The notes beneath the pieces were generated by a model. It worked only from the letters and a program-made list of their open reading frames with translations. It searched no databases and was not told where the DNA came from. From assembly GCF_026210795.1 (NCBI RefSeq), contig NC_089433.1, positions 5,704,001-5,768,000 of the forward strand: a stretch of 64,000 nt of DNA, in the 5' to 3' direction. This document shows positions 5,347-61,538 of the stretch, piece after piece. This stretch comes from Rhizophagus irregularis. Taxonomy: Eukaryota. The position numbers and the translations under genes are program-made. Each line of letters begins with the position of its first letter. Within the stretch, counting starts at the first letter, position 1.

Positions 5347-5774
5347 GTTAAATTTTATGCAAACTAAAATCCATTTTATTTTGCAAATTCTACTATGATA
5401 CTTAACAAATTATCAATAATTTTAATTTATATATAAATTAATATATAAACTTCTTAATAAATTTTTAAAATTTTAGTTTTATGCACCAGAAAATTTCTGT
5501 AAAGCTCAAATTATTGCTTAATTTGAGATAAACTAAAATCCATTTTATTTTCTATTATACTCAACAATAATTTTGTAAATAACAGATAATATTACTTGAG
5601 ATTTATGTTATCACGTGATCATAAATGATCGACAAATTTACTATTTTCAGTTTTACTATCTACATGAAACTCTAGTTTAGATACCCTATATGTTAATTAT
5701 GACTTTAGTTAAAACTTGTTGTATTTATATTCTTAATCAATGATTATTTTTATTTTTTTGTGATTTGATTTTTT

Positions 5775-5990
5775 CTATTTTTTTCTTAAAGGTTGATTTT
5801 GAGTTTTGGACGAAACTTCAAGCCATTCCAATGAATCTTGATGATCTTTATAACAACTTTTGCAAAGCTTATGATTGTGCATTTGTGCTTGTTTTTACTT
5901 TTACAACCATAAATGTTGCAATATGAATTATAATCCAAAGAAGTGCAAGTAACGTGTTCACATCAAAATACAATCCGAATTTAAATAGCA
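5775..5990 (-). pseudogene. Decayed Cys/His zinc-finger gene, relative of the ORFs at 26754 and 27260
   Basis: Hand translation gives VF*CEHVTCTSLDYNSYCNIYGCKSK, then a frameshift in an A-run, then QAQMHNHKLCKSCYKDHQDSLEW. Confidence 0.6.
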
Positions 5991-6301
5991 ATTACTACTT
6001 CAATTAATGCTTACTTTAAGTTGCTTTAGAAGTATTGTATATGTGATATAAATAGCGACTTTAATAAGAATATATCAATATCTTATATGGGAATCTCTTT
6101 TATTTGCATCAATAATATTTTGAACAAAATAAAATTATTTGCATTTTGTAAAAAATATTGTATTATAAGTATTATTAAATAGTAATTAATAAGTCAATAC
6201 TATTAAATAATCTGATGCTCTCTTAAAATTTATTTATTGATACGTATTACTATTGCTTTATAATAAGTATCAAGTGTTTTAATTATTAATATCTTATTTG
6301 T

Positions 6302-6721
6302 CTAATTTATAAATTTATTATTATTGTCCAAGCGTTTATTTCTTTTTTTTTTGAGACGCGGATAAGTAAATGGTAATGATCTTTTATCGAATTTGTTGAT
6401 GTAATCATTTAATTTCAAAAAATTTTTATGATTAACGAGAAATTCATTTTCTAATTTCAAGTATTCATTTTTTAAATCTGGCCTCACTTCTAGGTCAAGT
6501 TTGCTAAAACTAATTGTAGTTTTCAGATTATCAAAAAATCTTTCCAAAGATTTAATGGTATTATAGAATTCAAATCTAAAATCAGATTCCATATGAAGTT
6601 CACAATTTTTGTCAATAATGTGTTTCTCAAGATTATCTTTATCAATTGATAATTTGTCATAACAAAATATACAAAAGTCATGAAAGTGTTGCGAGTATCG
6701 GCATATAATTAACCGCAACAC
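6302..6721 (-). CDS. Hypothetical protein or terminal exon (139 aa, basic C-terminus)
   Basis: Open frame that starts at GTG right after a CAG (possible splice acceptor); no recognisable domain. Confidence 0.4.
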   Translation of the reverse strand: MLRLIICRYSQHFHDFCIFCYDKLSIDKDNLEKHIIDKNCELHMESDFRFEFYNTIKSLERFFDNLKTTISFSKLDLEVRPDLKNEYLKLENEFLVNHKNFLKLNDYINKFDKRSLPFTYPRLKKKRNKRLDNNNKFIN

Positions 6722-7766
6722 CTGTGACCATAACTATAATAAATCCAGTAAAATTGATTTTATATCTGTGATTTTTTAGCTATACGATATAACAAATAAA
6801 TATGTATAAAGTCTAATTACTATTTACTAGTAAGAAGTGAATTTATTAATTAATATGGTTTTTTACAGATTATGATGCTATTAATTGTTCAAAGAGACTA
6901 ATGTCGATGATCAAATTTAAAAAATTCAAGAAGGATTTTGATAAAAGCGGCAATTTTATTAATAACAAAATAATTAATATATTAATAGTGAAAGCAAGCA
7001 TAATAATCAAAATATAAAAAATAAGCATTGATTAAATTTTCATAATAATAAAAAGTTGTCAAATGTGCATATGTTATCAATTGTCGAAATTTTCACGCTT
7101 GGTATTTTTATTTCATGTTGTTCATTTAATTTTAATCCTGTAAACCTTTAAAGTTTTATATTGAATTAATTTTTATAAAAATTAAATTGTCTCAAACTAG
7201 ATAAAGTAATTTAACATATTATTTTATGGATCATTTTTTTTAATAGCATTTTTTTCTTAAGCTTCATAATCGCAATAAAAAAAGATCAAATAGGCATAAC
7301 TCGTAGACGCCACCAACAAAATTTCAACCTTAAAATTCAGTACCGGCATCACATTATTTCTATTATACTTTACATAATTTAATAATAATATATAATCTGA
7401 TAATTACAATTATTACAAATTTTTAAAGTTCAAAAAATTGTACTATACGAACAAATAAGCTAACATTTAGGTGCTCAAAAATTTGTCTAATACGAAATAA
7501 CAAGATTTTCTTTAAATTATACACAAATAACATTATCGCAAGCTACTCTGAATAAAGTGATAATGCTTTGTAAATCAAGGTTTATTGTTTTATTTTTTCT
7601 AACTGTATATGTGAAATGATTAATTTAATTTTAATTTACAAAATACATTATATATATTATATATTGGCTTCAATTTTTAATAATTAATACTTTAAATTGT
7701 AAAATAATTTTATTTTAGATTTTATTACTTAACCTTTTACGACTCATTGATAAATTACACAACTCC

Positions 7767-9101
7767 TTAATGATTCACTAATGCTTCGCGCTTTTGTCTG
7801 ACACCATCCTGATACGCAGCTGCTTCACGTTTTTGTCCACCTCCTCCACGATACGGTAATGCTTCACGTTTTTGTCCGCCACCTCCCCGATACGCGGCTG
7901 CTTCACGTTTTTGTCTACCACCTCCACGATAGCATAGCAAACATGCTTTATATCACTTTGACGATCATTTGCCGATCACAAGTTTCATTTTATTAAAAAA
8001 TGATTAAATTATGAAAAAGTGCAAGGCAAAGTAAATGCCTAAATAAGAAAAAAATAAAATATGCCACCTTTTATTGTTGTATAACTTTAAATTAAATAAT
8101 TTATATAATTTTTAATTTTTATATGCAAAATTATTAATATGTGATAATTTGAAGTTTCGGGATAAAAATTAAAGGCCGAAGCCAAATACGCAAAGCCGAA
8201 ACTTGAAATTTTGCATGAACATTCCTTTTATTATATATAATCTGTAAAAAAAATAATGCAAGGTTTTGACCCATAATGCAGGTTTTTTGCTTATAGAGAA
8301 ATTAGCCAATTATTTGTTATTAATATATTTCTAATAAAAAAGATTATTTACATCATTAAAAATAATGAAAAACTTTTAGTTGAAGATGAAGATGATAATA
8401 GTTTAAGTGAAGATAATAATGATGAGAATATTGAAAATAATTTAGAAATAATAGAAAGAAATATAGATAATCTGTTTGAAATATTATACTAAACATGGTT
8501 AAATTATTAATATAATTATTAGTATTTGTATTAATTTTTATGTTTTATATAAATTTTTAATTAAAATTAAAATTCTGTGAAGTTATTTGTAAATTTTAAA
8601 CACTTATTATATTTATTATTGTGTAAAATTGATCTGTCACGACATATGTATTATGTAATAAGATCAAATAAATGATCGGCAAATGATCGGCAAATTTGTG
8701 ATAAAATAGAGATGTTCGCTATGCTCTTCACGATACGGTAATGCTTCGCGTTTTTGTCCGCTACATTCCCAATACGCGGCTGCTTCACATTTTTGTCCAC
8801 CACCTCCGCGATATGGTAATGTCTTGCGTTTTTGCCTGCCACCTCCCCAATACGCAGCTGCTTCACGTTTTTGTCTACCACCTCCTCGATACGGTAAAGC
8901 GTCACGTTTTAGCCCACTCGATACTCTTAAATTATCTGGACTTTTTTCTATATATGACGAAGTATTTTGTAAATTTGAGTATTTAATTTGACTAGCATGA
9001 CGTCTAACAAGATGGTTGTTAGTATTTGGGTAATTGTTTAAAGTTGCACTTTGAACAATTGTGATAATTATTAAAAAAAAAGTAACAAAAATAAGTTTCA
9101 T
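7767..9101 (-). pseudogene. Secreted Kex2-processed repeat-peptide precursor (alpha-factor-like architecture), interrupted by a MITE
   Basis: Signal peptide MKLIFVTFFLIIITIVQSA, pro-region, then 13-aa repeats KR-[E/D]A-[LP/AA]-YRGGG[G/R]Q. Repeats resume at 7930-7767 beyond the insertion and end KREALVNH*. Removing 7931-8725 plus one TSD restores ...ALPYRGGGRQKR in frame. Confidence 0.88.
7931..8725. mobile_element. MITE with 9-bp TSD (Mutator-like) inserted in the peptide-precursor gene
   Basis: Imperfect TIRs AGCATAGCRAACAT...TATCAC...TTTGMCGATCATTTGCCGATCA; TSD CTCCACGAT (7922-7930) and CTTCACGAT (8726-8734). Confidence 0.85.
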
Positions 9102-9228: not shown

Positions 9229-10599
9229 CAGTCAACTCCCTCTATAGTCACTCCCGTTATAGTCACAATCTATCTATAGTCACTATCACACCTATCCTCA
9301 AAAATCTTATATTAAAAAGAACCGTTTATAATCACAGTTATATAAAGAATATATTAAATAACTTGGCATCTAATAATCGTACAAAGATGTATCATAGCTT
9401 GTTAGAATCGTCTCACTGAGACGAATCGAATGGTGGTAGTTTTATCCTTTTCCTTTTGCTATTGTTTACGGCCAGACCACCCATTGCCTCTTATGAGACT
9501 AATCTCGGGTCTGTGTCCTATCATCTTCAATAGGCAACCATTAAACCGAGTACTTAATTCCTCAGGTAACAGCACCATGTAGAAGACATCCCCCATCAAG
9601 CCATTTTAGGCTGATCTGAAGCTAGGTACACGCCGCCTACTCATCCTTAATCCATTGCATGATACTGGTACTCAATTTATTTTACGACCTTTAGAGAGCA
9701 CCTACTTTTATGGAGGACTTTTGACAGGTAACATCAACCATCTAGTACCCTTCCATACCACCATTTTAGGGAGTTTTATCCTTTTCCAATCACTGGCTGA
9801 CGAGTTATTCAACAAAATGTTAAACATCGGCATTATAATATTTCTTGATTTACGTTTACTGCGCCATTTAACATTTTGCTAGATTTCTCGGTACCTAGTG
9901 ATTGTAAAAACACGATTTATAGCTCGTTGGAATCGCCTCATCGAGACGAATCGAATGGTGGTAAGCTCATCTCTCTGTGATCAATATTGACGGAGTTATT
10001 ACTTAAAAACCATTTAATATTTTTTAATTTCGGAAATTGATCTAGTGATTGGATTTCGATGTATCTTATACCATTAGATTCGTCTCATCAAGACGAATCG
10101 AATAGTAGTAAGATCGTCTTTCTAGGATCAATATTGACAGAGTTATTACACAAAAACCATTAATATTTTTTTAATTTCGGAAATTAATCTAGTGATTGGA
10201 TTTCGACGTATTTTATACCATTAGAACCGTCTCATCAAGACGAATCGAATGGCGGTAAGATCGTCTTTCTAGGATCAATATTGACAGAGTTATTACACAA
10301 AAACCATTAATATTTTTTTAATTTCGGAAATTAATCTAGTGATTGGATTTCGACGTATTTTATACCATTAGAACCGTCTCATCAAGACGAATCGAATGGC
10401 GGTAAGATCATCTCTCTACGATTAATATTGGCGAAGTTACGGTACAATAAAGTTTTAAGTATAATTCTGGCTAAAATTATGTTAATTTTTGGCCAGAATT
10501 ATGATATACAAATACAAGAAATTTTTTATATAGTCACATCTCTTTATAATCACCAAATATGGACTGTCCCAAATGTGTGACTATAAAGAGAGTTGACTG
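9229..10599. mobile_element. Tc1/mariner-type non-autonomous element with internal 147-bp tandem repeats
   Basis: TIR CAGTCAACTCYCTYTATAGTCAC, TA on both flanks; internal units at 9935, 10082, 10229 and 10376. Confidence 0.88.
9454..9771. mobile_element. 318-bp GC-richer insert with 16-bp TSD (SINE-like or retrocopy) nested in the mariner-type element
   Basis: AGTTTTATCCTTTTCC duplicated at 9438-9453 and 9772-9787; no TIRs. Confidence 0.7.
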
Positions 10600-11068
10600 T
10601 ATATAACTTATTGTTAAAAAATTATTTGTTTATTAATGCAATGAATGTTTATGGATATTTCATTATAAATTATTTGTCGTAATTAAAATACAATGTCTAA
10701 TTATATTACTAAAAAGTCATTCCATAAAATTTATTTTAAGTTTACATGTTATTGTGAAAATTTGAAATTTTAATTGAAAACTACACGTAATGTTAAAAAT
10801 GATTTAAACTGCAAATGCAGTTTTATTTAATTCATTAATAAGCCAACAATACATGAAAGTTTAAATATTTGTACTGTTTATCAATAATACGTAAATAATT
10901 ATAAATTTATTTAATTTTTCTTTTGTAACGTAAATAAAATTTATTGCAATTAATGGTTTTGAACTATCAAATAATAATAAAATTAATTCATCTCAATTTG
11001 CTGGATATATTACAAGATATTCAGATGTTTGCATAAAATACAAAAATAATCATAATATATGCTCAGAA

Positions 11069-12181
11069 ATGGTTTCAAGTCAACAAGTTAATAATGAATT
11101 AATTTCAATTTTTAAAACTTTTAATAAACAAGAAGAATCAAATTATTTAGATAATTATAGATTAAAAATTGAAACCCCAAATAGTTACATCAAACAATTA
11201 GGAAAAGAATTAATTGCTGATTACAACTATAAATACTTCCCCTCATTACGTAATAAAAGCGAAAAAATAATTTTAACAACAAATAATGACAATTATGTTA
11301 ATGACTATTCAATTTATTTTGATACACTGAAAATGAGCTTAATTCGTTTAGAACAGCTTTTTATTCTCAACGATTTACCACCATTTTATATTTATGAATT
11401 TTTAAAACCTACAAAAAATAAATTTGGTCAAAATATATCAAGTTGGATTAAAAATATAACAGTGATTGATGTAAAGAAAATTAAGCAATTAAAAATATAT
11501 CTCGATGAGTATTTTCAGTTTATATTTGATCGGCCGAAAAATATCTATAAAATTAATAAATTAGCAGTGCCAATTGATTTTTCAGACCAAATTAAACTTG
11601 ACGAGTTTGCAGAATATTTAAGTAGAAATTCAATTGTCGTTTTAGATTTTTTTGATGAAAATCTTCGGTTAGTAAGTAGTGAAGAAGCAAATAACAGTTT
11701 TATTACTTGGTTTAAAGCAATTTATGAAACAAACAGCTATGAAATGCAAAAAATTACAGAATACAGATCAAATATTGAAAATCTTATAAAAAGAATAAAT
11801 GAAATTCATTCAAAATATAAAAAAATAAATTGTAACATAAATAAATTAGGAATAGAAGCAAAAATCGCAAAGTTGGCGTTAAAATTGATTCCTGATTATT
11901 GTGATAATAACGTTAATACTGAAAATAAGCAATGTTTAATTGATTTAGAACAATTAATTATCTGACATGGAATCTCTACGAGTATTGTTTTTGAATATAC
12001 AAAAAAAAATGCTAATCCAATAAATAATGATATTATTAATTGGATAAAAATAATAACTAAATTAGATAAAGAAAAAATTGTTTTTTTGAAAGAATACTTG
12101 GATCTATATTTAGAATACATTATTTATAGAATAAAAGATGATAAAAATATTAATGAGGTCTGGGATAAAAAATCTAAGTAA
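11069..12181 (+). pseudogene. Intronless ORFan of about 370 codons with an internally repeated domain; in-frame TGA at 11963-11965
   Basis: The frame stays open for about 71 codons after the TGA, and that segment aligns with an earlier part of the same protein (LIxLEQL...WIKxIT..D..KI..LKxYLD.Y...I..R). Confidence 0.75.
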
Positions 12182-15681: not shown

Positions 15682-17230
15682 ATGGATTACGCTATATTAA
15701 AACCATTTTTTGATCTATTTTCAAGAACACAAATTCAATCAGTTCTTATAGCTTGGCTGCCTACGAAAATAATGCCATACTTAACAGGGATAATAACAGT
15801 AGACATGTTTGCAATTACTGTTATAGTTTCCAGTCTTTCAACATTAACTTACCTATTTCATTCTTTAATATATGATTATTTAATAAGCCACTCAAACGAC
15901 AAAAATTTAATAACAATTCAGATAGATTATTACAATTTAGGAACATACAATGAAATGAATAAAAATATAATTTATGAATCATTGTCATGGCTAATTTCTG
16001 AGCAAACTAAAAAATTAGAAAAGGGCAAATTTATACTTCATTTAAAATAATAAATACAAACATAAGATACCGAACACGACAATTTCTCCAAAAAACAATA
16101 ATGAAATTACTGTTAAGTTCAAAGAAACACATTTTAACTTAATGTACAAAATTTCAGAAAAAAGTAATAGCCATAATGATAAAAACAAAGGAAGTTATTA
16201 TAACGTCCCATTTGTATCAATAGTTAACGACGATAAACCATCGATATATTTTTCCACCTTAAATAATAAAAAAACATGTGTTGGAGAAATTTTGTTGTTA
16301 TTTAATAATATTACTGAAAATTATTTAGAATTTCAAAGAAAAAATTATGGTCGTTTTAGATATGAAAACAATCAATCACAATGGAAACAAATACAAAAAT
16401 TGACTTCTTGCAGAGGATTTGATAGCATCGCGTTATAAAGAGAGGATCAAGAAAAATTATTAAAAAAAGAATTACACGCTTTTATAAACAATAAACATTT
16501 TTATGAAAAAAATGGGTTACCTTACAAGCGGGGTATACTTTTGTATGGAAAGCCTGGAACTGGAAAAACAAGCTTAGTAAATGCAATTTCAGCATATCTA
16601 TCTCGTGATATTTATTATTTAAACCTTAAAATGATTAAAAACGATAGCGAACTGAGTGCAACATTTAGCGCCATACCTTCTAATCAATTAATTGTTATTG
16701 AAGACGTGGATGCACAATCTACGGTTCTTCATAATAGAAAATTTGAAATAAACAGTATCGATAAATTTGTAAATGCAAAGTATATTGATAATAATGTCCA
16801 AAATTTTACAAGTTCTGATTTCAGTTTATCTGTGTTTTTGGCATGCTTAGATGGTCATTTAATTTCTGAGGGTAATATAATTATAATGACAACTAATCAT
16901 ATTGATTTTCTTGATCCTGCTTGCATTCGGCCAGGTCAAATAGACGTTCATTTTAAACTTGGTTATTGCACTCATTATCAATTGAATAAAATGTTCAAAA
17001 ACAATATTAACGAATCAGGAATTCCTGTCAATGTGTTAAAAAATATTAATGAAAATGTATTGCCACCATGTGAAGTTATGGCATTAATGTCATTGTATCA
17101 AAATGAACAAGAACAGGTTGTTATTGAAAATCTCATTAAAATAGCAAACCAATATAACAATAATCATAAAAATATTTGTAAAATAGAAAATATTACCATT
17201 AAAGATAAGAAAAGAAAATGTTCAATATAA
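15682..17230 (+). pseudogene. BCS1-like AAA+ ATPase, intronless, with a frameshift near 16045 and an in-frame TAA at 16436-16438
   Basis: N-terminal TM segment, PYKRGILLYGKPGTGKTS (Walker A), IVIEDVD (Walker B), MTTNHIDFLDPACIRPGQID. Confidence 0.9.
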
Positions 17231-18503: not shown

Positions 18504-19292
18504 TTAATTGCAGCTACTGTCAATATTAAAATCCAAGGTATAATAAGGCAGAAAATCGTCTACGAAAGAAAATGATGTGTTTATTAATGACGGATCTATT
18601 AAGTATGGATCTGTATATAATGAACTAATATAAGTTTGATCCATAAATAAAGACGTATTTCTATCTATTTCCATAAAATCGCATTGTGATGTCATGTCGA
18701 CATCGATTTCCGGAATATTGAAACTTGTATTCGGCATGTTATTGTTTTTACCAATATTGTTTGATTTAATTTCTAACGAATGAGTCGTCACCGAATCATC
18801 CAAAACATTATTTAGCAAATTTCTTTTATTTGTATTATTTGCAATTTTATTTCGGTAAAGAGATCTAACTGGGGAATATTTATAATTAGGATATTCTATT
18901 AAATGAATTTTCTTTGTAATTTGAAACAATCTAGTCCAAAATTGCGATTCACGCTTTGTAACTTTTTCCCATAAACAAGAAGCAATTGCGGAAGTGTCAC
19001 CAACAGACATTTTTAATCCAATTAAACCTTTTGAAATATTTTTACGATACAAAACCCAAGGATTTTGAGGTCTTGGAATAGTTTTTGATCTTGTAGTATT
19101 TGAGGGAGATAATAATTCTTGCAAATTCAGAATTGTTTTAATGTCACTATAATCATTAATTAATTCGATAATCAACGGTTTTATATTGGTATCTAATTCA
19201 TTTAAATTTATTGAATTGGTTTGATCTCGCACTAAGGATTGTAGTTTTTTGATTTTATCTATTCCCAAATTTTTTTTTGTTTTTGTTAACAT
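18504..19292 (-). CDS. MATA-type HMG-box transcription factor, intronless
   Basis: IPRPQNPWVLYRK...SAIASCLW...FW...H..EYPNYKYSP followed by an acidic tail. Confidence 0.9.
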   Translation of the reverse strand: MLTKTKKNLGIDKIKKLQSLVRDQTNSINLNELDTNIKPLIIELINDYSDIKTILNLQELLSPSNTTRSKTIPRPQNPWVLYRKNISKGLIGLKMSVGDTSAIASCLWEKVTKRESQFWTRLFQITKKIHLIEYPNYKYSPVRSLYRNKIANNTNKRNLLNNVLDDSVTTHSLEIKSNNIGKNNNMPNTSFNIPEIDVDMTSQCDFMEIDRNTSLFMDQTYISSLYTDPYLIDPSLINTSFSFVDDFLPYYTLDFNIDSSCN

Positions 19293-19623
19293 AATTAATA
19301 AAAAAATGTCCGTGTAAATTTCTTTATATACTTAATTATTGGCGTTAAATAAAACTCAAATACACATATTTAGTTAATATTAATGCATACTTAATATGCG
19401 TATTATTTATTGTACTAACAATACATAAAATAAAAAAAATTTATTTTATCACATCAATTATATCAAATTAAGTTTGTTTTTATATGAACTAACATTAAAT
19501 GATTAAAAAAATAAAATAATGTTATCTGTTATATGAAAACGCCCAAAATCGAAGTTATTAAATAACCTGTAAATAGGATATTGTAAAGATACAATAATAT
19601 CTATATTAAAAATATTGATGGAT

Positions 19624-26753: not shown

Positions 26754-26936
26754 CTACTGACAATTATTGTAAATGGAGTTATTTATTATTTTATTGTCAT
26801 ATTCGATAACGCATTTTTTGCATAAATCGTGTTTATGATAATTGATTTTATTGCAATGAATGAAAAAACATTTTTTAATTGGCATATCTTTTGCCGAAGT
26901 GTATGAAAAATTTTTGCAAGCAGAGCAAAAATTCAT
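26754..26936 (-). CDS. Small zinc-finger protein (60 aa)
   Basis: C-x2-C-x15-C-x4-C-x5-H-x-H-x2-C-x2-C, identical spacing to the C-terminus of 27260-27859. Confidence 0.75.
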   Translation of the reverse strand: MNFCSACKNFSYTSAKDMPIKKCFFIHCNKINYHKHDLCKKCVIEYDNKIINNSIYNNCQ

Positions 26937-49149: not shown

Positions 49150-49599
49150 TTAATATTTGCGATTTATTAGTAATTTCTTTTTTTTTCTGTATTCGCGATT
49201 TTTAAGGTTTCTCATAACTTTTTTATATTTTTGAAGCGGATATAACTCTTCATGTTCTTTTTTAATTTTTATTGATTTTTCAATATATGGCAATTTGTTT
49301 TCTTTTGTCGTGTTATTCCACATATTTCCTATTATTTTCGACAATTCACGAGATGTAGTGTTGGGATATTTTAATTTTACAAGTTTAAATATTTCACTTT
49401 TAAATAAAATAAATGAATTAGGTGGTTTTTTTGTAAGTAATTCAAAATCATACAAAACATAAAGTGGTACATTTATGTTATTTATTCTTTTAATGGCTTT
49501 TTCAGAATTTTTGAATAACGATTTATTAATAAGAACAGGTATATAGTCATTTTGAATATAAAAAATATCCTTTGTATTATATAAATTAAATAAAGACAT
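49150..49599 (-). CDS. HMG-box protein (SOX/TCF/MATA type), intronless
   Basis: KKPPNSFILFKS...YPNTTSRELSKIIGNMW...KLPY...KKEHEELYP..KY followed by a basic tail. Confidence 0.92.
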   Translation of the reverse strand: MSLFNLYNTKDIFYIQNDYIPVLINKSLFKNSEKAIKRINNINVPLYVLYDFELLTKKPPNSFILFKSEIFKLVKLKYPNTTSRELSKIIGNMWNNTTKENKLPYIEKSIKIKKEHEELYPLQKYKKVMRNLKNREYRKKKKLLINRKY

Positions 49600-50316: not shown

Positions 50317-51684
50317 ATGTTATCAAATAAAATGGCAACCCTTCCGAAATCTCCCCAGGAAAATCAGTTTACAGTTGCCGATATTCCAAAAGATAATATA
50401 TTGGAAATTAAAGAAATAATAAAAAACCCAATATTTAATGAATATTATATCAAAATAAAAGAATTAATAACGGAATATAGAAAGGATACAATATATCACA
50501 TATTAATTCCTTCTTTATTAGCCATTTCACATCACGCATTAATTAATGAAGGATTTTTAAATAATAAACATGAAATTAATTATAAAATTAAATTTAATGG
50601 TAAAACTAAAAGCTATAATTATATTATCGGCAACTCATCTAAGGAGAATAAAGTCAAACCCAAAGATAACTTTGCTTAAATTATTGGTTACGATATAACG
50701 AATCTTCCTGAGTTAGCTCGATTATTAGCCGTAGCAAATCACTTGACAGAAGATTCGGTTAATCAACACTTAGAATGGATGAAATTGAACACTTATACCT
50801 TTAAGTACAAAGAAAAAAATATGAATAGAATAGAATATACAGGTCAAATACAAAGCTTATTAGAAGACCTTACCTGGCAAAATGAATATATTAATGGATG
50901 GAATAAATTAGTTAGATATTTTTTATTGGGAATCATGATGTATGGATACTACCAAAATGATTTAAGTAAATCAATAAAAAAAAATAAAAAAGCAAAACAA
51001 CAAAAATCAAATTTTTTGAACGAGCTAAATAAAGCAGTTTCTAAATGCACCAATAGTATAATGGAAGAAAGTAAAACTAGTACTACAATTAATTCTGCTT
51101 TAGAAATAATTAAAATGGATAATGAATCTGCTGATAGTAAACTAACAAAGGAAGAATTAATTAAAAAACTCAAGGGTCATTTAAAGTTTTCATATTACTT
51201 ATTTTATTTTGTTAGAATGTTTGGATATGTATCATTGATAGCTTCAGTTTCTCCAGATCTGGCAGACAAACTACTAAAATCAATTAATCCAAAAAATTTA
51301 AACGAAATTAATAATTCTTTTAATGATTTAAAAGAAATTGATTTAGGAAAAGATCTAATCGCAAAAAATGCAGAATATGGAAATATAATTTGCAGAACAG
51401 TAATTGAATGCAGTCAAACTATGAAAATACATAACGATAAATTAAAAGAAGGCTTAGAGGAATTAATTGATCGTTATGCTTTTAATACTTATAGTAACAT
51501 AATATTCGAAGAAATAAATATTAATAATGAGAATAACTACAGAAGCGAATTTAATGCAATATCAGACGACGACGATATAAGCATGGACGAGGACGAGAAA
51601 AATAAAATAATGGATAAATTAAATGAAGATATACAAGATTTAAAAAGAAAATCAAGCATTGGTTCAAAGAAAATTGATCGATGA
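50317..51684 (+). pseudogene. Intronless ORFan of about 455 codons with one in-frame TAA (50677-50679)
   Basis: ORFs 50317-50679 and 50743-51684 are in the same frame and separated only by that stop. Confidence 0.7.
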
Positions 51685-52235
51685 GAAAGAAACTGGTTAG
51701 TAATAAACGGATAAATAAAACAACCGCTCCTTATAAAAAAAATAGAACACGTGGAAATAAAACCAAAAATAAAACCTTTAATTTAGAAGCGTTTAATACA
51801 GAAAGCCAGATAATTGATGACATTAAAAAAAATGAAATGCGTTCTCATATAAAAACTATTCGTAATGCACTTGACGAAAACATTTATAATGAATTAATTA
51901 AAAAATCAAGTGAAATTTTACATTAATACAATAATTTGAATGAAAGTGATGCAAAATTAGCTTCACAATATTCAACATTTAAAGAATTTATAGATTACAA
52001 TCATGTATTTATAATGGAAGAAAAAGAAAAAGAGATCATACAAAAAAATGTTATTGATTTTCGATCAGAATTAAATAATCTTCAACAAACTCAATTCAAT
52101 AACAACTTCAATACAATTACATCACAATATCAAAATAACGTTGGCTTTGATTGTTTAAATGATGATGATAAAAATCTTTTTATATTGAATGAAACAGTTA
52201 TTTATTGCAACAATTCTAATTTTTTTACACAATAG
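51681..52235 (+). pseudogene. Intronless ORFan of about 184 codons with one in-frame TAA (51924-51926)
   Basis: ORFs 51681-51926 and 51936-52235 are in the same frame; ATGA overlap with the upstream ORF. Confidence 0.6.
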
Positions 52236-52303: not shown

Positions 52304-53257
52304 ATGGCCGAAGAATTAACTAATTTATTTGATAATCTTCAAATTGAAAGAAATAGCAAATATGAAAATACAAACGTATATTGCGAGCAGATTAATACTA
52401 TCTCTAACACTTACGATCATTTATTACTAAATTTGATTAAAATTTTAATAGCAGATAACACAATGAAAATTAATATTTATGATAGAGTAATAATTATAAA
52501 CAATGTTTTGTTTTGCATAAATCTTAATCAAAATAATCAAATTGAAGATTATATTCCATATAAACCTTTAATGCGATTACCGGCATATAATAATAAATTA
52601 TCATTTGTTTCTAAAAATGACCCAACTTGGTGGGATGAATGTTGTACTGAATTTGAAAATTCTATGTTACATCTTAAAAATTTAACTAATAATACTACAA
52701 CATTCAATATTAAATCAATGATTGACCAAAAAAATTATATAGAAATTGAAATTATCAATTTAACCATTAAAATTATGAATAAAGAAAAAATAAGTGAATT
52801 TAGTTTAGTTCAAATGTACATTTTATCATTATACTTAGAAAATTTTTTTATAGAATATAAATTAGAATCAATTTATAGCGAAGAATTTTTATATACAAAT
52901 AAATACTTTACTTTCTATAGCCAATTAGTAATAAACTATTTAAAGAAAAGTGATCTGTTTTATTCTTATAATGAGAATTTTTATTTAAGATTCATTAACC
53001 CATCACTATTATATTTATTATACAGCGTTAAAAATACATTAATTCTTTTTAGACCTTATGGGTATGATGCATTATGTGATAATTCGGATATTATAGATTT
53101 AAACATACATGAAATAATTTCATTCAAAAAAGAAGGATTAAAATACTTTGCATTAAATAATTTAATTGAATTAAAATTAAATAATAAAAAATTACATATC
53201 ATTAATTCTGACGAATATGCTAATGTAATTTGCAATGATGCTTATATATTGAATTAG
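52304..53257 (+). CDS. Hypothetical intronless protein (317 aa)
   Basis: Long ORF in very AT-rich DNA; TATATAAA 40 nt upstream. Confidence 0.75.
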   Translation: MAEELTNLFDNLQIERNSKYENTNVYCEQINTISNTYDHLLLNLIKILIADNTMKINIYDRVIIINNVLFCINLNQNNQIEDYIPYKPLMRLPAYNNKLSFVSKNDPTWWDECCTEFENSMLHLKNLTNNTTTFNIKSMIDQKNYIEIEIINLTIKIMNKEKISEFSLVQMYILSLYLENFFIEYKLESIYSEEFLYTNKYFTFYSQLVINYLKKSDLFYSYNENFYLRFINPSLLYLLYSVKNTLILFRPYGYDALCDNSDIIDLNIHEIISFKKEGLKYFALNNLIELKLNNKKLHIINSDEYANVICNDAYILN

Positions 53258-55069
53258 TTTTAGTATTAAAGTATTAGTATATCACTTTACTACATATCGG
53301 CGGATTTGTTTCATCACCTAAATATGCTGAATTTTTGCATTATGTAAGCACAGCAAAGTTAAGGATGCATTGCACGATATCCATAAAGATGTGTGATTAA
53401 AAAAAATCAATTTTGATACGATTTTAATTTTGGCCGGAATTAACATAATTTTGGCCAGATTTATGATATGTAGATCAGTGTAACATCATATGATAACGCT
53501 AAGCCACTCCAATAAAATGTTTTTTTACTTTCGCTTCTTTTTAATTTAATTTCTAATTTTAAAAAGTACACAATTAGTATACGAGTCTCAAGTTAAAACT
53601 AAAAAATTGATTTTTAAATTATAAATTTAATCTATTACAGTATTTATATTAATACTTTAAATTTAAGTATAATAAGAAACATAAAACATTTTGAACGCTC
53701 AACACTTGTGACAAAAAAATAGTGAAATATAAAGATAACCACCCAAACTCTTTTCAAAAATTCACTTTCAAAATATCTTTACAATAAGTCTTCTCAAATG
53801 AACCTATATAAGCAAAAAGGGAGAATTTAGAACAATATTATTTAAAAAACTTCTTAGATCTAAAAGGTAAAAAGAAAAAAAAAAAGAAATAGAAAACTAG
53901 CCAAAAGAATAAAAAAAAACTCCAGCACTAAATATTCATACAACTCACAGACTGACATACCTTAAGTCGGATAGGTTGTAACTATGTCGGATGGGTTAAA
54001 ACACGGTTTTTTTTAAAAATATTTTTTTTTTAACGTTGGCAAGTTCAAAAAAAATTTTTTTTTCAATTGATCTACAACTCACCTGATGTGAAATCTTGTG
54101 TTTGCTGATCAGTTTAGTATTACGCAAAAGGACTAATAAGGCAATAAAGCAATTTTATCCCGTGAATCAAATCCGCCCATATGAGCAAAGTGATATATAT
54201 GAAATTTATTATAGTTACAAAAGAGCACGATTGATTAGATAAATTAAAATTTTAGTTTGAACTAAAAATATATTTGAGTTGTATTTTTCTTATTACTTTA
54301 TGTTTAAGACTATTGCAATAATAAATCGTTTTGCTTATTAGATTATCATAAATATCAAAAAATACTTGTTGTTATTATAGTACATGTGTATTTTCAGCAG
54401 AATTTATTTGGAAAAGTATTCGTTATTGAGGCGTCATACATTGTTGCCGTAATTTTTTGTATGGAAATGCAATTATGTGCGACGATAATTGTACATGCTA
54501 TTCGCAATATTGTTGAATAAACGTATAAATGGAACACACTGACACATTATGGAAAAATTCAATAAAATGAATCAAAAATTTATCAAGGTTTTATTATTCG
54601 TTTTATAACCCATTTTTATAATGCCTTAAGAATTTTCAATTATTTCCGTTGTGACGTATTCCATGGTGATCATGAGACAATTGACAAATATTGTTCTTTA
54701 ACAATACAAAAAAAAAAAATACAATACAATACAAATAAATAACTTAGTGTTTCATTAGTATAAAAAAAATGCTCAATGCACAAAAACAATAATTATTAAG
54801 TTAAGTCTTAATACAATATGAATTTAATAACATATATCAAATTTAAACTTAATTCAATATGTCGGGATATTAATTTATTATATATTATGTATTGTTTATT
54901 AATTTTAATTGTTTTGAGTTTGTAATTATAATACGATAATAGTATAAATGTATTATTATGATTTGATACAAATTAAAAATATTTAAGTAAATTTTTATTA
55001 TTAGATTTATCAAAAAATATGTTCAATAGAATATCTGTCAACTCGTACATTGATAATAAATGTAATAGA

Positions 55070-57270
55070 AAAAAATATTTATTGATTTTCACACAAAAAT
55101 AAATTGAAATACTGCACTATCTTTGCTTCAATTTTATAATTGTTATTGATTGAATATTTGTTATTATGCAATTTAATTTTTTAAATTATCGTTGCCTCAA
55201 TTAAAGCTCCGAACGGTTCGGGCTAAACCGGGGAACTGATCCGAAACCGGCTCAAAATTCGGTTCGGTTTGGTTCAGGTATTAGAACCGAAAAACCGGCG
55301 GTTCGGTTCGGTTTAATCTGATTTTTTATAAAAATGCGAAAATCGAATAGCCGGCCATCTAGTGATCGTACAAAGTCGAGCCATATATCATTGGATTCCT
55401 CTCGACGAGACGCGGCGAATGGTGGTAAGATCATGTCTCTAGCATCGATAGAGCACACGTTAACCCACGCTAAATGATTTATCAATAATTGGAATTAGCA
55501 AGCTATCTATCGGTGCTAGAGACATGATCTTAGCACCATTCGACGCGTCTCAGTGAGACGAATCCAATGAATATAAATTCGTTCGTGTAGGATCACTGGA
55601 TGGCGAATAATATCAAGTTTCACATTTTTTTAAAATTTTCGAGCGTTAAAAATTAAAAATTCCGATACATGAATTTATTCGTCGTCCAATGGTCGTATAA
55701 ATATGAATTAGGACTCATTGGATTCGTCTCGATGAGACGAGTCGAATGGTGGTAAGATCACATCTCTAGCATTGATAGATAGCTTGCTAATGCCAATTTT
55801 TTATAAATTATTTAGCGTGAATTAACTTACGATCTATTAATGCTAGTGACATGATCTCACCACCATTCGACTCGTCTCATCGAGACGAATCCAATGAGTC
55901 CTAATTCATATTTATACGACCATTGGACGACGAATAAATTCATGTATCGGAATTTTTAATTTTTATTGCTCGAAAATTTTAAAAAAATGCGAAACTTGAT
56001 ATTATTCGCCATCCAGTGGTCGTACACGAACGAATTTATATTCATTGGATTCGTCTCGACGAGACACGTCGAATGGTGCTAAGATCATGTCTCCAGCACC
56101 GATAGATAGCTTGCTAATTCCAATCATTGATAAATCATTTAGCGTGGGTTAACGTGTGTTCTATCGATGCTAGAGACATGATCTTACCACCATTCGACGC
56201 GTCTCGTCGCGACGAATCCAATGATATATGGCTCGACTTTATATGATCACTAGATGGCCGGCTATTCGATTTTTCGCATTTTTATAAAAATCGGATTAAA
56301 CTGAACCGAACCGCCGGTTTTTCGGTTCGGTTCTTACGGATTTCGGCTCTAATCCAAACCGTCTATAATCCGGACCAAACCGACCCGTTCGGAGCTTTAG
56401 CCTCAATTTTATAATCGTTATTGATTTAATATTAAGTCTAATATAATAATTATGACCGAAACTGAAGATAATATTTATTGATTTTCACACAAAAATAAAT
56501 CGAAATACTGCACTATCTTTGCTTCAATTTTATAATTGTTATAGATTGAAATTATTGTTGCCTCAATTTTATAATTGTTATTGATTTAATATTAAGTCTA
56601 ATATAATAATAATGACCGAAACTGAAGATAATATTTATTAATTTCCACACAAAGATAAATCGAAATACTGCACTATCTTTGCTTCAATTTTATAATTGTT
56701 ATAGATTGAAATTATTGTTGCCTCAATTTTATAATCGTTATTGATTGAATATTAAATCAATACAATAATGATGACCGAAACTGAAGATAATATTTATTGA
56801 TTTCTACACAAAGATCAATCGAACACTGCACTATTTTTGCTTCAATTTTGTAATTGTTATCGATTGAATATTCGTTATTATGCAAATTGATACGATAATG
56901 GTTTATAGAAGATAATATTCTTTGATTTTCACACAGAGATTAATTGAAATACTGCACTATCTTTCTTCGATTTTATAATTGTTATCGACTGAATATTTAA
57001 TCGATACAATGATGATAACCGTAATAAAAGATAATATTTATAGATTTGCCATTCAAAGATAAATCAAAATACTAGATTATTGTTTTTTTAATTATATAAT
57101 TGTTATCAATTAAATATTCGTTATTATGACTCAATTTTATTATTTAATCGATACAATAATGATGGCCGTATTAGAAGATAATGATTATTGATATCTAAAC
57201 AGATAAATCAAAATACTGCATTATCTTTGCTTTAATTTTATAATCGTTAATGCTTGAATATTAGTTATTA
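55070..57270. repeat. Degenerate tandem array (units of about 125-170 bp) interrupted by a hAT element
   Basis: ATTGATTTTCACACAAAAATAAAT(C/T)GAAATACTGCACTATCTTTGCTTCAATTTTATAATTGTTAT recurs about 7 times. Confidence 0.85.
55202..56399. mobile_element. hAT-type fold-back non-autonomous element, almost fully palindromic over 1.2 kb
   Basis: TIR TAAAGCTCCGAACGG; 8-bp TSD GCCTCAAT (55194-55201 and 56400-56407); AACCG/CGGTT subterminal repeats. Confidence 0.92.
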
Positions 57271-58632
57271 TGTGATGCTTCAAATAGATATTTAATGTAA
57301 AAAAATCAAAATTTATAATAATTTTGTCAGCGTTTGTTGAATTGTATATTATAATATAGCATTAATACATAATTAAAGCTATTCTTTTTCTATCAAAAAA
57401 GGTAATTATTATTATTATTATAACTTAATTTAAATTAGTATCACTTGTTGTAATGAACGCAAATTTTTATATAGAACAAAACGTCACTTTCATGAAAGCT
57501 TAACATGCTTTTAAAGATTTTTTAAATGAAAGTTATTGAACACTGCCATTAAAACTTCAATTTGACATATCAGTCAATAAGGATTCAATTTTTATAATAT
57601 TAATTATTAATTTTCTAAATTATTAGACTATAGTATAAATCTAGTTATATTAAAACACATAAAAAAATGGTTCATTATATTTTTTATCAATAATAATATA
57701 AGAAATGTTTTAAAACATTTTTTTTATATAAAAGACTTATAGATAATAAATTCATTATAATACTATCAACTTTGTAGGCAAGTCAGAGCAATAAATTTAT
57801 TAATTTTAAACTAATACAAAATTATGAAAATACACAATATAAAATTTTCATCTATTACTTTGCGACTTTGCAAACATCACTTAAAGTTTTGTTTTTTTAT
57901 AAAATTAATAATAGCATACAATTGAATTAACATTGTACAGTTTTGTATTTATTAATATTTCATTTTTATATAAAGTAAGTAAGTAACACTTAATAAATAC
58001 AATTTAATGATACAATACTTAATATATTTATAATACTGTTTTCATGCTGCAATCATGCAACACATTCAATTGTCCAATGAATTATTAATTTGAAATGATT
58101 GTTCATATTATAATTTGTTAAATTATCAAATATCAATAGCGACTAATTTTAAAAGTAAACATATTGATAACATAATTTTGTATTACCTATTGTAATTTTT
58201 TACGACTGTTGTCTTTGAAAACGCACAAAACAATAAAATTTATTTTTGTAAACAAAAAATACATAAATGAATGTGACGAAAACCACATATATTATAAGAA
58301 CACTTTACAATTCAAAGTTATAACGTAAAAAAAATATTTTCAAAATAAATATGCATATACGAAAGTTAATTTAGTTATAATTTATTATAAGTATATTTTC
58401 AAAAGCGTGAACTTAATGCTTTTTTTTTATAGTTCTGGATGAGCGTGTAAGTATGATAAGTCTTTAAAACAGTTCTATTATTTGGTGCAAGATGTCATAT
58501 TTAATCTGATTAAGGACAATAAAGAGTAGGTCAAATCAATAACATCATCAAAAAAATTATTTCTTGATTTACTAAGTTTTGTATTTTTTAATTCGCATAT
58601 AGCCTATAATAATAACAATATGACACAATTAA

Positions 58633-59441
58633 TTGCTAATTCGGTTAAGATCGGCAGTGTCTTACTATGTAAAATCGGGGTAAAAAAAGAAAATAATTAT
58701 CTCTTGATCCAATGATCCAATTTCAATGAACTTTTTTTTGTTCTATAGATCTTGATTTCCTCAATAAAATAAAAAATTTATTGAAATTGAAATACTAAAT
58801 TATAAGAAAATCGTGAAAAAGTATTTCATATTATTATTATGACTAAATTTTAGTAAATCATAAAAAAAGAATTGATTCCTAATTCAGTGATCCAATTTCA
58901 ATAATTTTTTTTTGTCTTTTAGGTCTTAACCTCTTCTTCACAATAAAAAAAAGTTTGTCAATATTGGACTGCTAGATCGGAAGATAATCACAAAGATATA
59001 TTTTGCTATATCACTGAATCTAAAAATCGTCTGGCAAAATATGTTTTCGCAATTATCTCACGATCTAGAGGCCCAATTTTGACAAAATTTTTTTATTATG
59101 TAGAGATTATTGAGATCCAAATAACAAAAAAAAGTTTAAATCGAAATTGGATACTGAAAAAAAATCAGTTTATCGAAATTGGATAATCAGATAATTGTCT
59201 GCTTTGTTATTAATGGAATCTGATCGTTGTCAGTAAAATATGTTTTTGTGATTATCTCACAACCTAATGGTCCAATTTCAATGAAATTATTTTTATTTTA
59301 TAAAGGTAATCCAGACTTACAGAACAAAAAAAAGTTCATCAAAATTGGATTATTAGATCATATGATAATTATTTTTATTATTTGCACCAATTTCCCCAAT
59401 TTTACATAGTAGGACACTGCTGATCTTAACCGAATTAGCAA
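58633..59441. mobile_element. MITE flanked by TTAA
   Basis: TIR of about 48 bp, TTGCTAATTCGGTTAAGATCRGCAGTGTCYTACTATGTAAAATYGGGG; TTAA on both sides. Confidence 0.88.
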
Positions 59442-59717
59442 TTAATGCGATTGATTTATAGATTCATAACATTTATAATAAAAACATTTTATTGTAGAAA
59501 GATGAATATTTTTTTGACCTTAATATATTAAATTTAAATTATTCATTTTTCGGACTACTGTACTAATTAATAAATGTGGGCTTAATTGTTATTTTCATAA
59601 TTTATAATTCGTTATAGTTGCTAACTGATAAAAATTCATGTATTCTTACAAAATATATTTCAAGCATGATCAAATGAGTTTAGTTAATTTGAGCCATGCA
59701 TAATTTTCATACTATAA

Positions 59718-59930
59718 TCACTGATTGATGATTACTTTACGTTTTATAAAAAATTGTTTTAGGAGAACATAACAACATGCATATAATAATATTGCAAATA
59801 CAACTAATATTGCGATTATTACTAGATAACAGTAATTTCCGCAGTTTAACCTTTCTTTGTTATAATGTGTTAATGCCTCACTGAAAGGTAGAAAAGAAAA
59901 AGGAAGCAGTAAGATTAACAAGTATATCAT
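59718..59930 (-). CDS. Small single-pass membrane protein (70 aa)
   Basis: Signal-peptide-like N-terminus, short ectodomain, TM helix followed by CC and a basic tail. Confidence 0.6.
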   Translation of the reverse strand: MIYLLILLLPFSFLPFSEALTHYNKERLNCGNYCYLVIIAILVVFAILLYACCYVLLKQFFIKRKVIINQ

Positions 59931-61538
59931 ATTTGAGTACTATACGTAACTAACAATTGTTTTTAAATATCAAATTTTGTATTATTGACAACAGTATTAT
60001 TATTTTACAGGTTGTATTGTTCTGCGAAAGTACTTATGTTTAGACAATAAAATAAATTATAAGTAATCCTGATTTAATGTTGAATATTTATATCTGTATT
60101 ATCACGATCATAATAATTATAATGATTTCAATCTAATTGTATCGAAAAACAAACGTTACGACATGATACACAAACATTCCAATGGGATAATAAATATTTG
60201 AAGTGATAAAGTTAATTGTCCTTTTTTTGTTAATTTGAATCTTAATCATCAAGTATAATTAGTAACATTAATAAATTTGCAATGCAAAAGTTAATTACAA
60301 AAAACATTTTTTTTAGTCAGGTGATAGAAATAAAGGTACATAGTATTTTATACAAAGTATTTTCAGTATCTGAAAGATCAATAATTAACCATCCTTATAT
60401 AGCTTTATATCAAACTATTTTTAGTAATGCTGAAATTAAAAAAATTTTAATCTCCCAAAATGTTTACGTAATACTACCATGTATAAATATTTAATAAAAT
60501 TGGACACTACTTTAACTATTTATTTGTTTTTCTCCCACGCCCAATTTTTGATACTTTTGTTATATTGCTTTCAAAATATTGTATTCATTATTTTTCCCAA
60601 TTTTCAAAAATAAAACAATTACTCATTTACGTATAAGTTGGAAATTGTATCAATAATTATCAATCATCTAATTAAAAATAATATCAGGTTTTTAAAATAC
60701 TGGTCATTTTGTTTAATTTGATTAACAAAACAAGCATATTCATAACATATATAAAAATAATTTATATAATTGTAATTTACGTAATATTACATAATGGCAA
60801 TAATAAACATTTAAATATTGATTTGGTATACGTAATTATTATAGAATATCATTAATATTTAATAACGCAATATTATCGCAAAACATAAAAATGTAAACCA
60901 AAACGAACAATTTAATTTTGCTGTATTTGTTTATGAAAATGATCATTTATGGTTAAGTTTTAAACTAATTTTTTTAAAACTGAATTATATAGTGTGCGAC
61001 ACTGTCTCTGCCTTTTTGAATTTTCAGAAATTCAATAAATTGCTCATATTTAAGCGCAGCTTAAAATTTAAATATTTTCTCTTAAATGATGACATGCACA
61101 CTTTCTCTCGATCGATTGCCTAATAAAAATTTCTTTCGGTTAAAATCGATTTTCATTTATAATACTTTTTAATAAAAGTACACATACACAATATTATTTA
61201 ATTAAATAAGTGTAACAATCACAATTTATTTATTTTATCAAACCGGCATCAATATAAGTCTATTTAGCTCACTGATCTAAAACGGATCATAAATTACATT
61301 TTGCTATTTATAATAAACTAAACAAAGAACAAATGCATTATGTTAGTTACCTTTGAACTTCAATTCCTTCTATTTTAGGATTGAATGGACCTTCAGATTC
61401 ATGTGTAACTTTATGAAACTCGTATTATCGTTATAATAGGAAATTAATAGTTCTCTTATCTGGGAATAATGCAATGCTGAAAACATTATAAAATTTCAGC
61501 TAATTACTTTAGTTTTTAAATGATTAAAATATATCGAT

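What the first reader, a model, noticed from the sequence alone, without database searches (positions are those of the whole stretch)
5400..60000. Accessory island resembling a decaying endogenous large DNA virus or giant mobile element
Seen: after the intron-rich P450s, gene style changes abruptly to mostly intronless, N/K/I-rich ORFans with lineage-private paralog families (zinc fingers, HMG pair), a BCS1-like ATPase, tight packing at 50.3-53.3 kb, frequent premature stops and heavy TE colonisation. Known: a very large endogenous Nucleocytoviricota-derived region has been reported in Rhizophagus irregularis, and BCS1-like AAA ATPases occur in giant viruses. Caveats: no viral hallmark gene (capsid, PolB, A32 ATPase, RNA polymerase) is visible in this window, and two island genes have introns.
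Basis: inference. Interest (0 to 1): 0.7.

Follow-up and report, generated by a model that had tools for sequence, protein, structure and literature searches.

The report
Decaying orphan-gene island in mycorrhizal fungus
This stretch of a root-symbiont fungus chromosome holds broken and intact genes of unknown families that were once functional and whose relatives turn up only in unnamed environmental DNA; it likely arrived as one large mobile block, but no giant-virus gene was found in it.

Summary
The window is Rhizophagus irregularis DAOM 197198. The island is real, but a giant-virus origin is not supported. About 42% is transposon/repeat, including one 17-kb LINE/P-element block. Remove it, and a spliced coiled-coil gene, an HMG gene and a broken 640-aa gene lie in the same order and orientation as in a metagenome contig (55-64% identity, dN/dS 0.29). 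Three ORFan families (640, 426, 317 aa) have diverse relatives, none of them from a named genome other than R. irregularis. Island proteins cluster only with R. irregularis models (DAOM 197198 where a strain is named), unlike the flanking P450. No viral hallmark appears in 135 open frames. The BCS1-like ATPase nests in a fungal clade that excludes the 45 virus-contig homologues tested. The HMG, ML-like and KEX2-repeat genes are AM-fungal types. The 'tight packing' at 50.3-52.2 kb is one broken gene. Best reading (0.45): decaying cargo of a horizontally acquired large element of unknown class. Rivals: ordinary host accessory region (0.37), Nucleocytoviricota remnant (0.12).

The parts
1..5340 (+). 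Left flank: end of one cytochrome P450 gene and a second, multi-intron P450 (about 3485-5340); host genes, not part of the island
   Evidence: Pfam p450 E 1.8e-33 and 1.2e-27; 90% cluster of 29 members from many assemblies; X22 contig pieces coincide with P450 exon positions
6305..6733 (-). Open frame with a C..H-x-H-x2-C-x2-C zinc-finger-like motif (copy 1); may travel with the P450 duplicate rather than with the island
   Evidence: motif scan; covered by contigs with other alleles
7770..9101 (-). Two paralogous KEX2-processed-repeat (alpha-pheromone-like) precursors: 8667-9101 with a likely signal peptide and 13-aa KR-EA-type repeats; 7770-7952 a start-less fragment
   Evidence: repeat family D1; translations; KEPs with STE13 signatures are described in R. 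irregularis (PMC6339444, passages)
9229..10601 (.). High-copy non-autonomous TIR element (TA-CAGTC ends) with 147-nt internal repeats
   Evidence: TIRs; summed contig depth in the tens of thousands in X16
10934..12178 (+). ORFan of the ~426-aa internally repeated family; one in-frame stop at 11963
   Evidence: 10 hits: 1 R. irregularis model and 9 unnamed or 'hypothetical' environmental proteins at 36-66% identity; tblastn; stop lies opposite Arg in 7 of 7
15682..17227 (+). BCS1-like AAA ATPase gene, broken (frameshift near 16047, stop at 16436); fungal clade
   Evidence: Pfam AAA; Glomeromycota top hits; trees; 770-nt contig 16441-17210 without differences in RNA-guess run X19
18507..19292 (-). 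MATA-HMG-like gene 1 (262 aa)
   Evidence: cluster member named MATA-HMG; weak Pfam HMG_box E 0.01
19441..20163 (-). Spliced ML-domain-like gene, likely secreted (model OCT59_025765)
   Evidence: Pfam E1_DerP2_DerF2 E 0.0049, below cutoff; X20 contig joins 19688 to 19764 across a GT..AG intron with 0 differences
23610..24419 (-). MATA-HMG-like gene 2 (270 aa), paralog of gene 1
   Evidence: 37% identity over 292 columns; dN/dS 0.47 against gene 1
25640..26107 (+). 156-aa ORFan
   Evidence: single-member cluster; no family in Pfam, PHROGs or NCBIfam
26757..27856 (.). Two zinc-finger-like ORFans: 26757-26936 (-, 60 aa) and 27260-27856 (+, 199 aa), both C-x2-C...C-x4-C...H-x-H-x2-C-x2-C
   Evidence: motif scan against shuffles; clusters of 1 and 2 members
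28438..30270 (+). Multi-exon coiled-coil gene, interrupted by an inverted-repeat element (28519-29262); first gene of the syntenic module
   Evidence: three colinear segments match L002 6875-7629 (35-57% identity, weak on their own, E 0.003); shared donor after ...ENK in both genomes
30921..48015 (-). Secondary insertion block: a truncated and a near-full LINE (endonuclease, RT, RNase H, zinc-knuckle ORF1) at a thrice-repeated 18-nt target site, with MITEs and a nested P-element-like transposon (41719-47229; ~25-nt TIRs, 7-nt target duplication)
   Evidence: Pfam RVT_1, RNase_H, Exo_endo_phos, TNP-like; target site at 30921, 34000, 47996 and TIRs
49153..49599 (-). HMG-box gene 3; second gene of the syntenic module
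   Evidence: Pfam E 4.8e-17; 64-66% identity to the L002 HMG, dN/dS 0.29
50317..52232 (+). One intronless ~640-codon ORFan gene broken by two stops (50677, 51924) and a frameshift (~51680); third gene of the module
   Evidence: intact 640- and 637-aa homologues at 53% and 35%; tblastn tiles them over 50332-52214; dN/dS 0.29
52304..53254 (+). Intact 317-aa ORFan, 72 nt downstream; family of unknown fold
   Evidence: 18 hits among 1.84 billion representatives; AlphaFold pLDDT 76.6, pTM 0.79
55004..57281 (.). Palindromic TIR element (55284-56328) inside a degenerate 160-nt tandem array
   Evidence: the repeat finder I1, D5-D8
59721..59930 (-). 70-aa open frame with two hydrophobic stretches (possible small membrane protein)
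   Evidence: sequence only; not in the protein collection

Best explanation
The island is a strain-restricted, AT-rich gene block in R. irregularis DAOM 197198 that likely entered the chromosome as one piece, as cargo of a large mobile DNA element of AM fungi whose class is unknown, and is now decaying. Shown: it mixes AM-fungal-type genes (three HMG-box genes, an ML-like gene, KEX2-repeat precursors, a fungal-clade BCS1-like ATPase) with at least three uncharacterised protein families. The two genes that could be measured against another genome were under purifying selection. Three genes now carry stops or frameshifts, and a 17-kb LINE/P-element block split a three-gene module that is intact elsewhere. 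Inferred: (1) it is absent from other strains; (2) it came by horizontal arrival as a unit rather than by repeated loss; (3) the HMG and zinc-finger proteins served as the element's own nuclear transcriptional regulators; (4) the mobility genes lie outside the window or were deleted; (5) host silencing and TE insertion drive the decay, while some captured host-type genes are still transcribed.
For: Of 19 island proteins looked up, 13 were in the collection. They fall in 12 clusters of 1-5 members, each protein on at most 4 contigs. Named members are all R. irregularis, and DAOM 181602/197198 wherever a strain is named. The flank P450 cluster has 29 members, with CAB4/CAB5/PKY/PKK accession series (that these series belong to other strains is recalled). 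640-aa family: 5 hits, 2 R. irregularis models and 3 unnamed or hypothetical. 426-aa family: 10 hits, 1 R. irregularis model and 9 environmental. 317-aa family: 18 hits; 10 were looked up, and none has an NCBI source or an organism name. By contrast the BCS1-like search returned 24 named Glomeromycota proteins in its top 31 rows. Gene order coiled-coil(+) / HMG(-) / 640-aa(+) is shared with metagenome contig L002, whose left 6.8 kb has no significant match to the window. dN/dS is 0.29 for both measurable genes at dS 0.85-1.24. CpG observed/expected is 1.22 in non-TE island DNA against 0.65-0.77 in TE ORFs and P450 exons.
Against: No integrase, tyrosine recombinase, element-specific polymerase or capsid in 135 open frames. 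No terminal repeat between the candidate borders other than shared MITE sequence. Coding density of the non-TE part is only about 38%. Host-type and spliced genes are mixed in, with a conserved intron position in the module. [quoted passage not shown] The P450 control is a multicopy family, which inflates the contrast. Identical proteins of other strains would be hidden behind '-'. The flank 1-5340 as a whole also has CpG o/e 0.99, and the L002 left part 1.55, so the CpG signal is weak. Gene calls from metagenomes favour intronless ORFs. Only one independent syntenic locus was seen (L001 and L002 are 100% identical).
Confidence: 0.45

Rival explanations
1. An ordinary host accessory (B-compartment-like) region: fast-evolving fungal orphan genes and multi-copy families inherited vertically, kept in DAOM 197198 and lost or unannotated elsewhere, with no dedicated mobile element.
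For: The recognisable genes are AM-fungal types: MATA-HMG, ML-like, KEX2 repeats (PMC6339444), fungal-clade BCS1-like. Spliced genes with a conserved intron. No mobility gene. TE-rich, gene-sparse regions with orphan and strain-specific genes are described for this species (PMC8647823, PMC10234402, bioRxiv 10.1101/2021.08.12.456011; passages).
Against: Three deep families (down to 34-36% identity) with no named AM-fungal member outside R. irregularis would need many independent losses. The syntenic module has an unrelated left flank in L002. ORFan coding GC (22.7%) is far below the P450 exons (30.1%).
Confidence: 0.37
2. A remnant of an endogenous Nucleocytoviricota genome (Asfarviridae-like as in strain 4401, or Mycodnaviridae-like) whose hallmark genes lie outside the window or have eroded.
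For: Intronless, AT-rich ORFans known only from environmental data. BCS1-like ATPases are common in virus contigs: 120 matches, 80 loci kept. The fungal BCS1-like clade lies unresolved among viral lineages at the base of the tree. R. irregularis strains carry 15-33 viral PolB copies (PMC10640383). One fungal giant-virus contig is described as having lower GC and intron density than its host (PMC13533422, S2 Fig legend passage).
Against: No hallmark in 135 frames. The window's ATPase is 31-37% identical to its five best viral homologues but 52-75% to its nearest fungal-clade ones, and sits in an 18-row clade (support 100) with 0 of 45 viral rows. Profiles of the three ORFan families and 7 other island proteins hit nothing in 1.35 Mb of those virus loci. 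The 4401 GEVE has higher GC (36.6%) and few repeats (18%), the reverse of this block. A spliceosomal intron position is conserved.
Confidence: 0.12
3. Transfer from an AT-rich bacterium such as a Mollicutes-related endobacterium, with the 'premature stops' reflecting another genetic code.
For: Low GC and intronless ORFs.
Against: The four stops lie opposite different residues (TGA opposite Arg in 7 of 7; TAA opposite Asp, Gln/Lys, Lys/Ser), so no consistent recoding. HMG-box and spliced genes are eukaryotic.
Confidence: 0.03

Closest known systems
1.5-Mb Asfarviridae-related GEVE of R. irregularis strain 4401 (PMC10640383)
   Same: Same species; strain-restricted; low coding density (36% there, about 38% of non-TE DNA here); decaying genes mixed with fungal genes; some introns.
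   Different: The GEVE has five marker genes, GC 36.6% (host 28%) and 18% repeats. This block has no marker in the window, GC 22% and 42% repeats, and lies in DAOM 197198. The GEVE's own ORFs could not be compared, because the supplement gives only its DNA and marker alignments.
Accessory / B-compartment and 'young', orphan-rich regions of R. irregularis (bioRxiv 10.1101/2021.08.12.456011; PMC8647823; PMC10234402)
   Same: Repeat-rich, gene-sparse, orphan genes, strain-specific content, secreted proteins.
   Different: Here the orphans are shown to belong to conserved, formerly selected families with micro-synteny in another genome. None of the high-copy kinase, BTB, Sel1 or Kelch domains was hit in this window.
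Mycodnaviridae endogenous elements of zoosporic fungi (PMC13533422)
   Same: Fungal nuclear integrants; mosaic of ORFans and fungal genes; can be lower in GC and introns than the host.
   Different: Defined by MCP and other GVOGs and by high gene density; none of these is seen here. That paper found no MCP by hmmsearch in 40 non-zoosporic genomes.
Starship cargo elements (PMC9156397, search listing only; features recalled)
   Same: Works like them in this reading: a large block that carries accessory genes between genomes.
   Different: No captain tyrosine recombinase (DUF3435) in the window; Starships are known from Pezizomycotina (recalled).

Membership tests
Nucleocytoviricota endogenous element (GEVE) | Hallmark genes (MCP, PolB, A32, RNAP, VLTF3, D5, capping enzyme) inside the window | tested here: not met
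   Pfam on 42 long and 93 short open frames: no such family. Pfam only; no GVOG library was on hand, and frames under 44 aa were not scanned.
Nucleocytoviricota endogenous element (GEVE) | Hallmark genes elsewhere on the contig | not testable with these tools
   No genome is held for this window.
Nucleocytoviricota endogenous element (GEVE) | Genes whose nearest relatives are viral | tested here: not met
   BCS1-like nests with Glomeromycota, 0 of 45 viral rows in its clade. ORFan families: no relative in IMG/VR pattern scans, which have limited sensitivity.
Nucleocytoviricota endogenous element (GEVE) | Viral fold in the ORFans | tested here: inconclusive
   BFVD and PDB searches gave no match at E<=0.001; the 640-aa model is mostly low confidence.
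Nucleocytoviricota endogenous element (GEVE) | Composition distinct from host | tested here: inconclusive
   GC is 22% against 26.6% in the left flank, but the right side stays at 22-23% to the window end; the shift is opposite to the 4401 GEVE.
Starship / tyrosine-recombinase cargo element | Captain recombinase at one end, short terminal repeats | tested here: inconclusive
   No recombinase domain in the window, but the ends of the block are not located and may lie beyond 64 kb.
Polinton/Maverick | pPolB, retroviral-type integrase, capsid, long TIRs in 15-40 kb | tested here: not met
   No such domain; no long TIR enclosing the ORFans. Feature list recalled.
R. irregularis accessory / B-compartment region | Genes absent from other strains | tested here: inconclusive
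   Cluster contrast favours it, with the caveats given; other strains' assemblies could not be searched directly.
R. irregularis accessory / B-compartment region | Repeat-rich, gene-sparse, orphan-rich | tested here: met
   42% TE/repeat, 18 coding intervals in 54.6 kb; most have no family.
R. irregularis accessory / B-compartment region | Hi-C compartment B, high mCG, small-RNA production | not testable with these tools
KEX2-processed repeat proteins (KEPs) | Signal peptide plus near-identical motifs separated by KR, with STE13 dipeptides | tested here: met
   Read by eye from the translation of 8667-9101: hydrophobic N-terminus, KR-EA/DA repeats, some sites degenerate; no signal-peptide predictor was run.

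The most novel reading that the evidence does not exclude
The block is a fossil of an undescribed family of large, AT-rich, nuclear integrative DNA elements or viruses of AM fungi, unrelated to Nucleocytoviricota. It is marked by a conserved module (coiled-coil gene, HMG gene, 640-aa and 317-aa proteins) and a 426-aa repeat protein, has many intact relatives in environmental DNA, and includes a protein with a possibly new fold.
Probability: 0.3. Interest if true: 0.8.

Novelty: new variant of a known kind. Interest (0 to 1): 0.45.

Why it matters
About half of R. irregularis genes are strain-variable, and their origin is an open question. This block gives concrete markers, three conserved protein families and a syntenic module, with which to test whether some accessory DNA of AM fungi moves as large units. 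If it does, it would be a cargo-carrying element class in a lineage where none was found in my searches. The 317-aa family has a confident model with no structural neighbour found. The result also shows that gene models here (411, 450 and 528 aa versions of one locus) splice around the breaks of a pseudogene.

Tried and rejected
Whole-genome context: none held. Sequencing runs: no RNA holder listed; 20 of 24 rows hold the stretch or part of it. Runs X21-X24 had a 0.00 word share for 10.7-20.6 kb and were laid on 1-20000. X21's listed long pieces stop at 6692, X22's exon-like pieces fall on the P450s, and none is listed in 10.7-20 kb. No contig bridges the gap and the table is cut, so this is no proof of absence and gives no breakpoint. 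The 24.5-64 kb part was never laid. IMG/VR scans with the 640-aa, 426-aa and 317-aa alignments, the 156-aa and 199-aa proteins, one fungal BCS1-like protein and the L002 HMG: 0 relatives in 7 of 7. These rest on a few exact peptide patterns; one search missed the viral BCS1-like family that the alignment scan found, which shows the limit. GTDB genome scans: none in 2 of 2. Phage records: no match. PHROGs 0 of 18. NCBIfam: 1 weak low-complexity hit in 19. PDB sequence profiles: best E 0.27 and 0.17. Folds: 640-aa model pLDDT 44, best VIA Z 6.3 on helical pieces; 317-aa model best VIA Z 4.5, Foldseek no E<=0.001; this shows neither a different nor a new fold. ESM Atlas: no usable hit for two proteins. 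Five short ORFan motifs had 0 occurrences in the GEVE paper's supplement, which holds no ORF proteins, so this is uninformative. Alternative genetic code rejected. The Gln in the ATPase's RPG-Q motif is not counted as decay, because the R. clarus relative has it too. Portal or capsid identity of the 640-aa protein was considered from its size; there was no support. Earlier scan findings: nothing in 4 look-ups.


Full report
Identity. Exact look-ups place island proteins in clusters whose named members are Rhizophagus irregularis DAOM 181602/197198 gene models (GLOIN_2v1486240 'MATA-HMG', OCT59_025765, OCT59_025775), on a 5,829,432-base contig. No genome was laid, so everything below rests on the window, protein searches, two read layings and fetched loci.

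Anatomy. The first 5.3 kb holds two P450 genes. The island's middle third is not island at all. 30921-48015 is a block of two LINE copies at an 18-nt site that occurs exactly three times (30921, 34000, 47996). A P-element-like transposon (TIRs at 41719 and 47229, 7-nt duplication) is nested in the LINE's ORF1, and MITEs lie inside the block. With other TIR elements and arrays, repeats cover 42% of 5400-60000. The 18 coding intervals cover 38% of the remainder (intervals drawn by hand). Non-TE island DNA is 22% GC against 26.6% in the left flank, and it stays at 22-23% up to 64 kb, so no right border shows.

Host-type genes. Three HMG-box genes; the extreme expansion of MATA-HMG genes in this fungus is known to me from a reference title in PMC4219462 and from recall. 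An ML-like gene whose GT..AG intron is skipped by a difference-free contig in run X20. Two KEX2-repeat precursors, a class described as abundant in R. irregularis (PMC6339444, passages). A BCS1-like ATPase: 24 of the top 31 rows of its search are named Glomeromycota proteins. In a 115-row tree it lies in a 28-row clade (SH-aLRT 99) with 23 Glomeromycota and 2 other fungal rows (5 of 120 hits under 180 aa left out). An alignment scan found 120 related stretches in IMG/VR, of which 80 loci were kept. With 45 of 65 distinct viral proteins added, the window's protein stays in an 18-row clade (support 100) with no viral row; its five best viral matches are 31-37% identical. The base of that tree is unresolved, so a very old viral origin of the whole fungal clade is not excluded. 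The gene is broken, yet a 770-nt difference-free contig from RNA-guess run X19 lies on it.

The ORFans. They are not junk. (i) 50317-52232 is one gene. Intact 640- and 637-aa relatives tile across its four open frames, and database models of 411, 450 and 528 aa splice around the breaks. (ii) 10934-12178 belongs to an internally repeated family of about 350-550 aa and has one stop, opposite Arg in 7 of 7 relatives. (iii) 52304-53254 is intact, with 18 hits among 1.84 billion representatives. Its model is confident (pLDDT 76.6, pTM 0.79). Apart from R. irregularis models, no hit of the three families carries an organism name (for the 317-aa family 10 of 18 were looked up). A Cys/His motif recurs three times, against a shuffle mean of 0.01.

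Synteny. A metagenome scan returned one locus twice (L001, L002; 100% identical). It reads coiled-coil gene (+), HMG (-), 640-aa gene (+). The window has the same three genes in the same order and orientation once the 17-kb block is set aside. The gaps are then 650+1135 nt against 276 nt, and 718 against 460 nt. The coiled-coil match is weak alone (E 0.003), but three segments are colinear and the splice donor after ...ENK is shared. dN/dS is 0.29 for the HMG (143 codons) and for the 640-aa gene (422 codons), at dS 0.85 and 1.24 (simple Nei-Gojobori counts). L002's left 6.8 kb has no significant match to the window. It looks like spliced fungal DNA, but that is my impression and was not tested.

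Accessory status. 13 of 19 island proteins were in the collection, in clusters of 1-5 members and on at most 4 contigs each. The P450 exon's cluster has 29 members from several accession series. This favours restriction to DAOM 197198. However, the control is multicopy, and identical proteins from other strains would be unnamed. Contigs with other alleles cover pieces up to 6692, so a border at 5.4-5.7 kb is doubtful.

Virus test. No hallmark domain in 135 open frames. No hit of three family profiles and seven other island proteins in 1.35 Mb of BCS1-bearing virus loci. The published GEVE (PMC10640383; parts 1-3 of 5 of the text, the supplement's sheet list and two searches of it) is in strain 4401, GC-rich and repeat-poor. 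Its Tables S2-S4, which list 59 smaller viral regions including DAOM's, were not in the readable supplement and could bear on this block. Mycodnaviridae (PMC13533422; abstract, section 6, passages) are defined by MCP and high gene density.

Mechanism. Shown: a mosaic block, past purifying selection, conserved micro-synteny, later TE insertion and gene breakage, and probable transcription of at least two host-type genes. Inferred: arrival as a unit on a large mobile element, regulation by its HMG and zinc-finger proteins, silencing by the host. I put this at 0.45, an ordinary vertically inherited accessory region at 0.37, an NCLDV remnant at 0.12 and bacterial transfer at 0.03.

Literature. Nine searches showed no paper that describes these families or such an element in Glomeromycota. 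Most listed papers were seen as listings only, and subscription journals are missing. Passages only were read for PMC6339444, bioRxiv 10.1101/2021.08.12.456011, PMC10827195, PMC5294986, PMC4219462, PMC10234402 and PMC8647823.

Verdict. A real, decaying accessory block with undescribed protein families. Not shown to be viral; worth the strain-comparison and contig-context tests.

Noticed in passing
window 7770-7952 and 8667-9101 (-): Alpha-pheromone-like KEX2/STE13 repeat precursors predicted to release short Tyr-Arg-Gly-rich peptides; one copy has lost its start and several KR sites in the other are degenerate.
   Followed up: partly
window 30921, 34000, 47996: The same 18-nt target sequence borders two LINE copies inserted head to tail, which suggests a target preference or re-insertion into its own duplication.
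   Followed up: partly
window 41719-47229: P-element-like transposon nested in LINE ORF1, with an extra 454-aa ORF (42111-43472) of no Pfam family downstream of the transposase.
   Followed up: partly
window 4600-6700: Runs X16, X17 and X21 share a 10-nt insertion after 5549 and the same substitutions at 5966 and 6028, pointing to a second copy of the P450 plus its downstream 1.3 kb, or to small assembly errors.
   Followed up: no
window 28165-28223: Degenerate duplicate of the first exon of the coiled-coil gene (28444-28502).
   Followed up: no
window 55284-56328 and 9370-10427: A 508-nt-arm palindrome built from the same ~90-nt unit that forms 147-nt tandem repeats inside the 9.2-10.6 kb TIR element.
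   Followed up: no
   Followed up: partly
window 17458-17628 (+): 57-aa ORF with a CHxxxxCxxC motif directly downstream of the BCS1-like gene; single-member cluster.
   Followed up: partly
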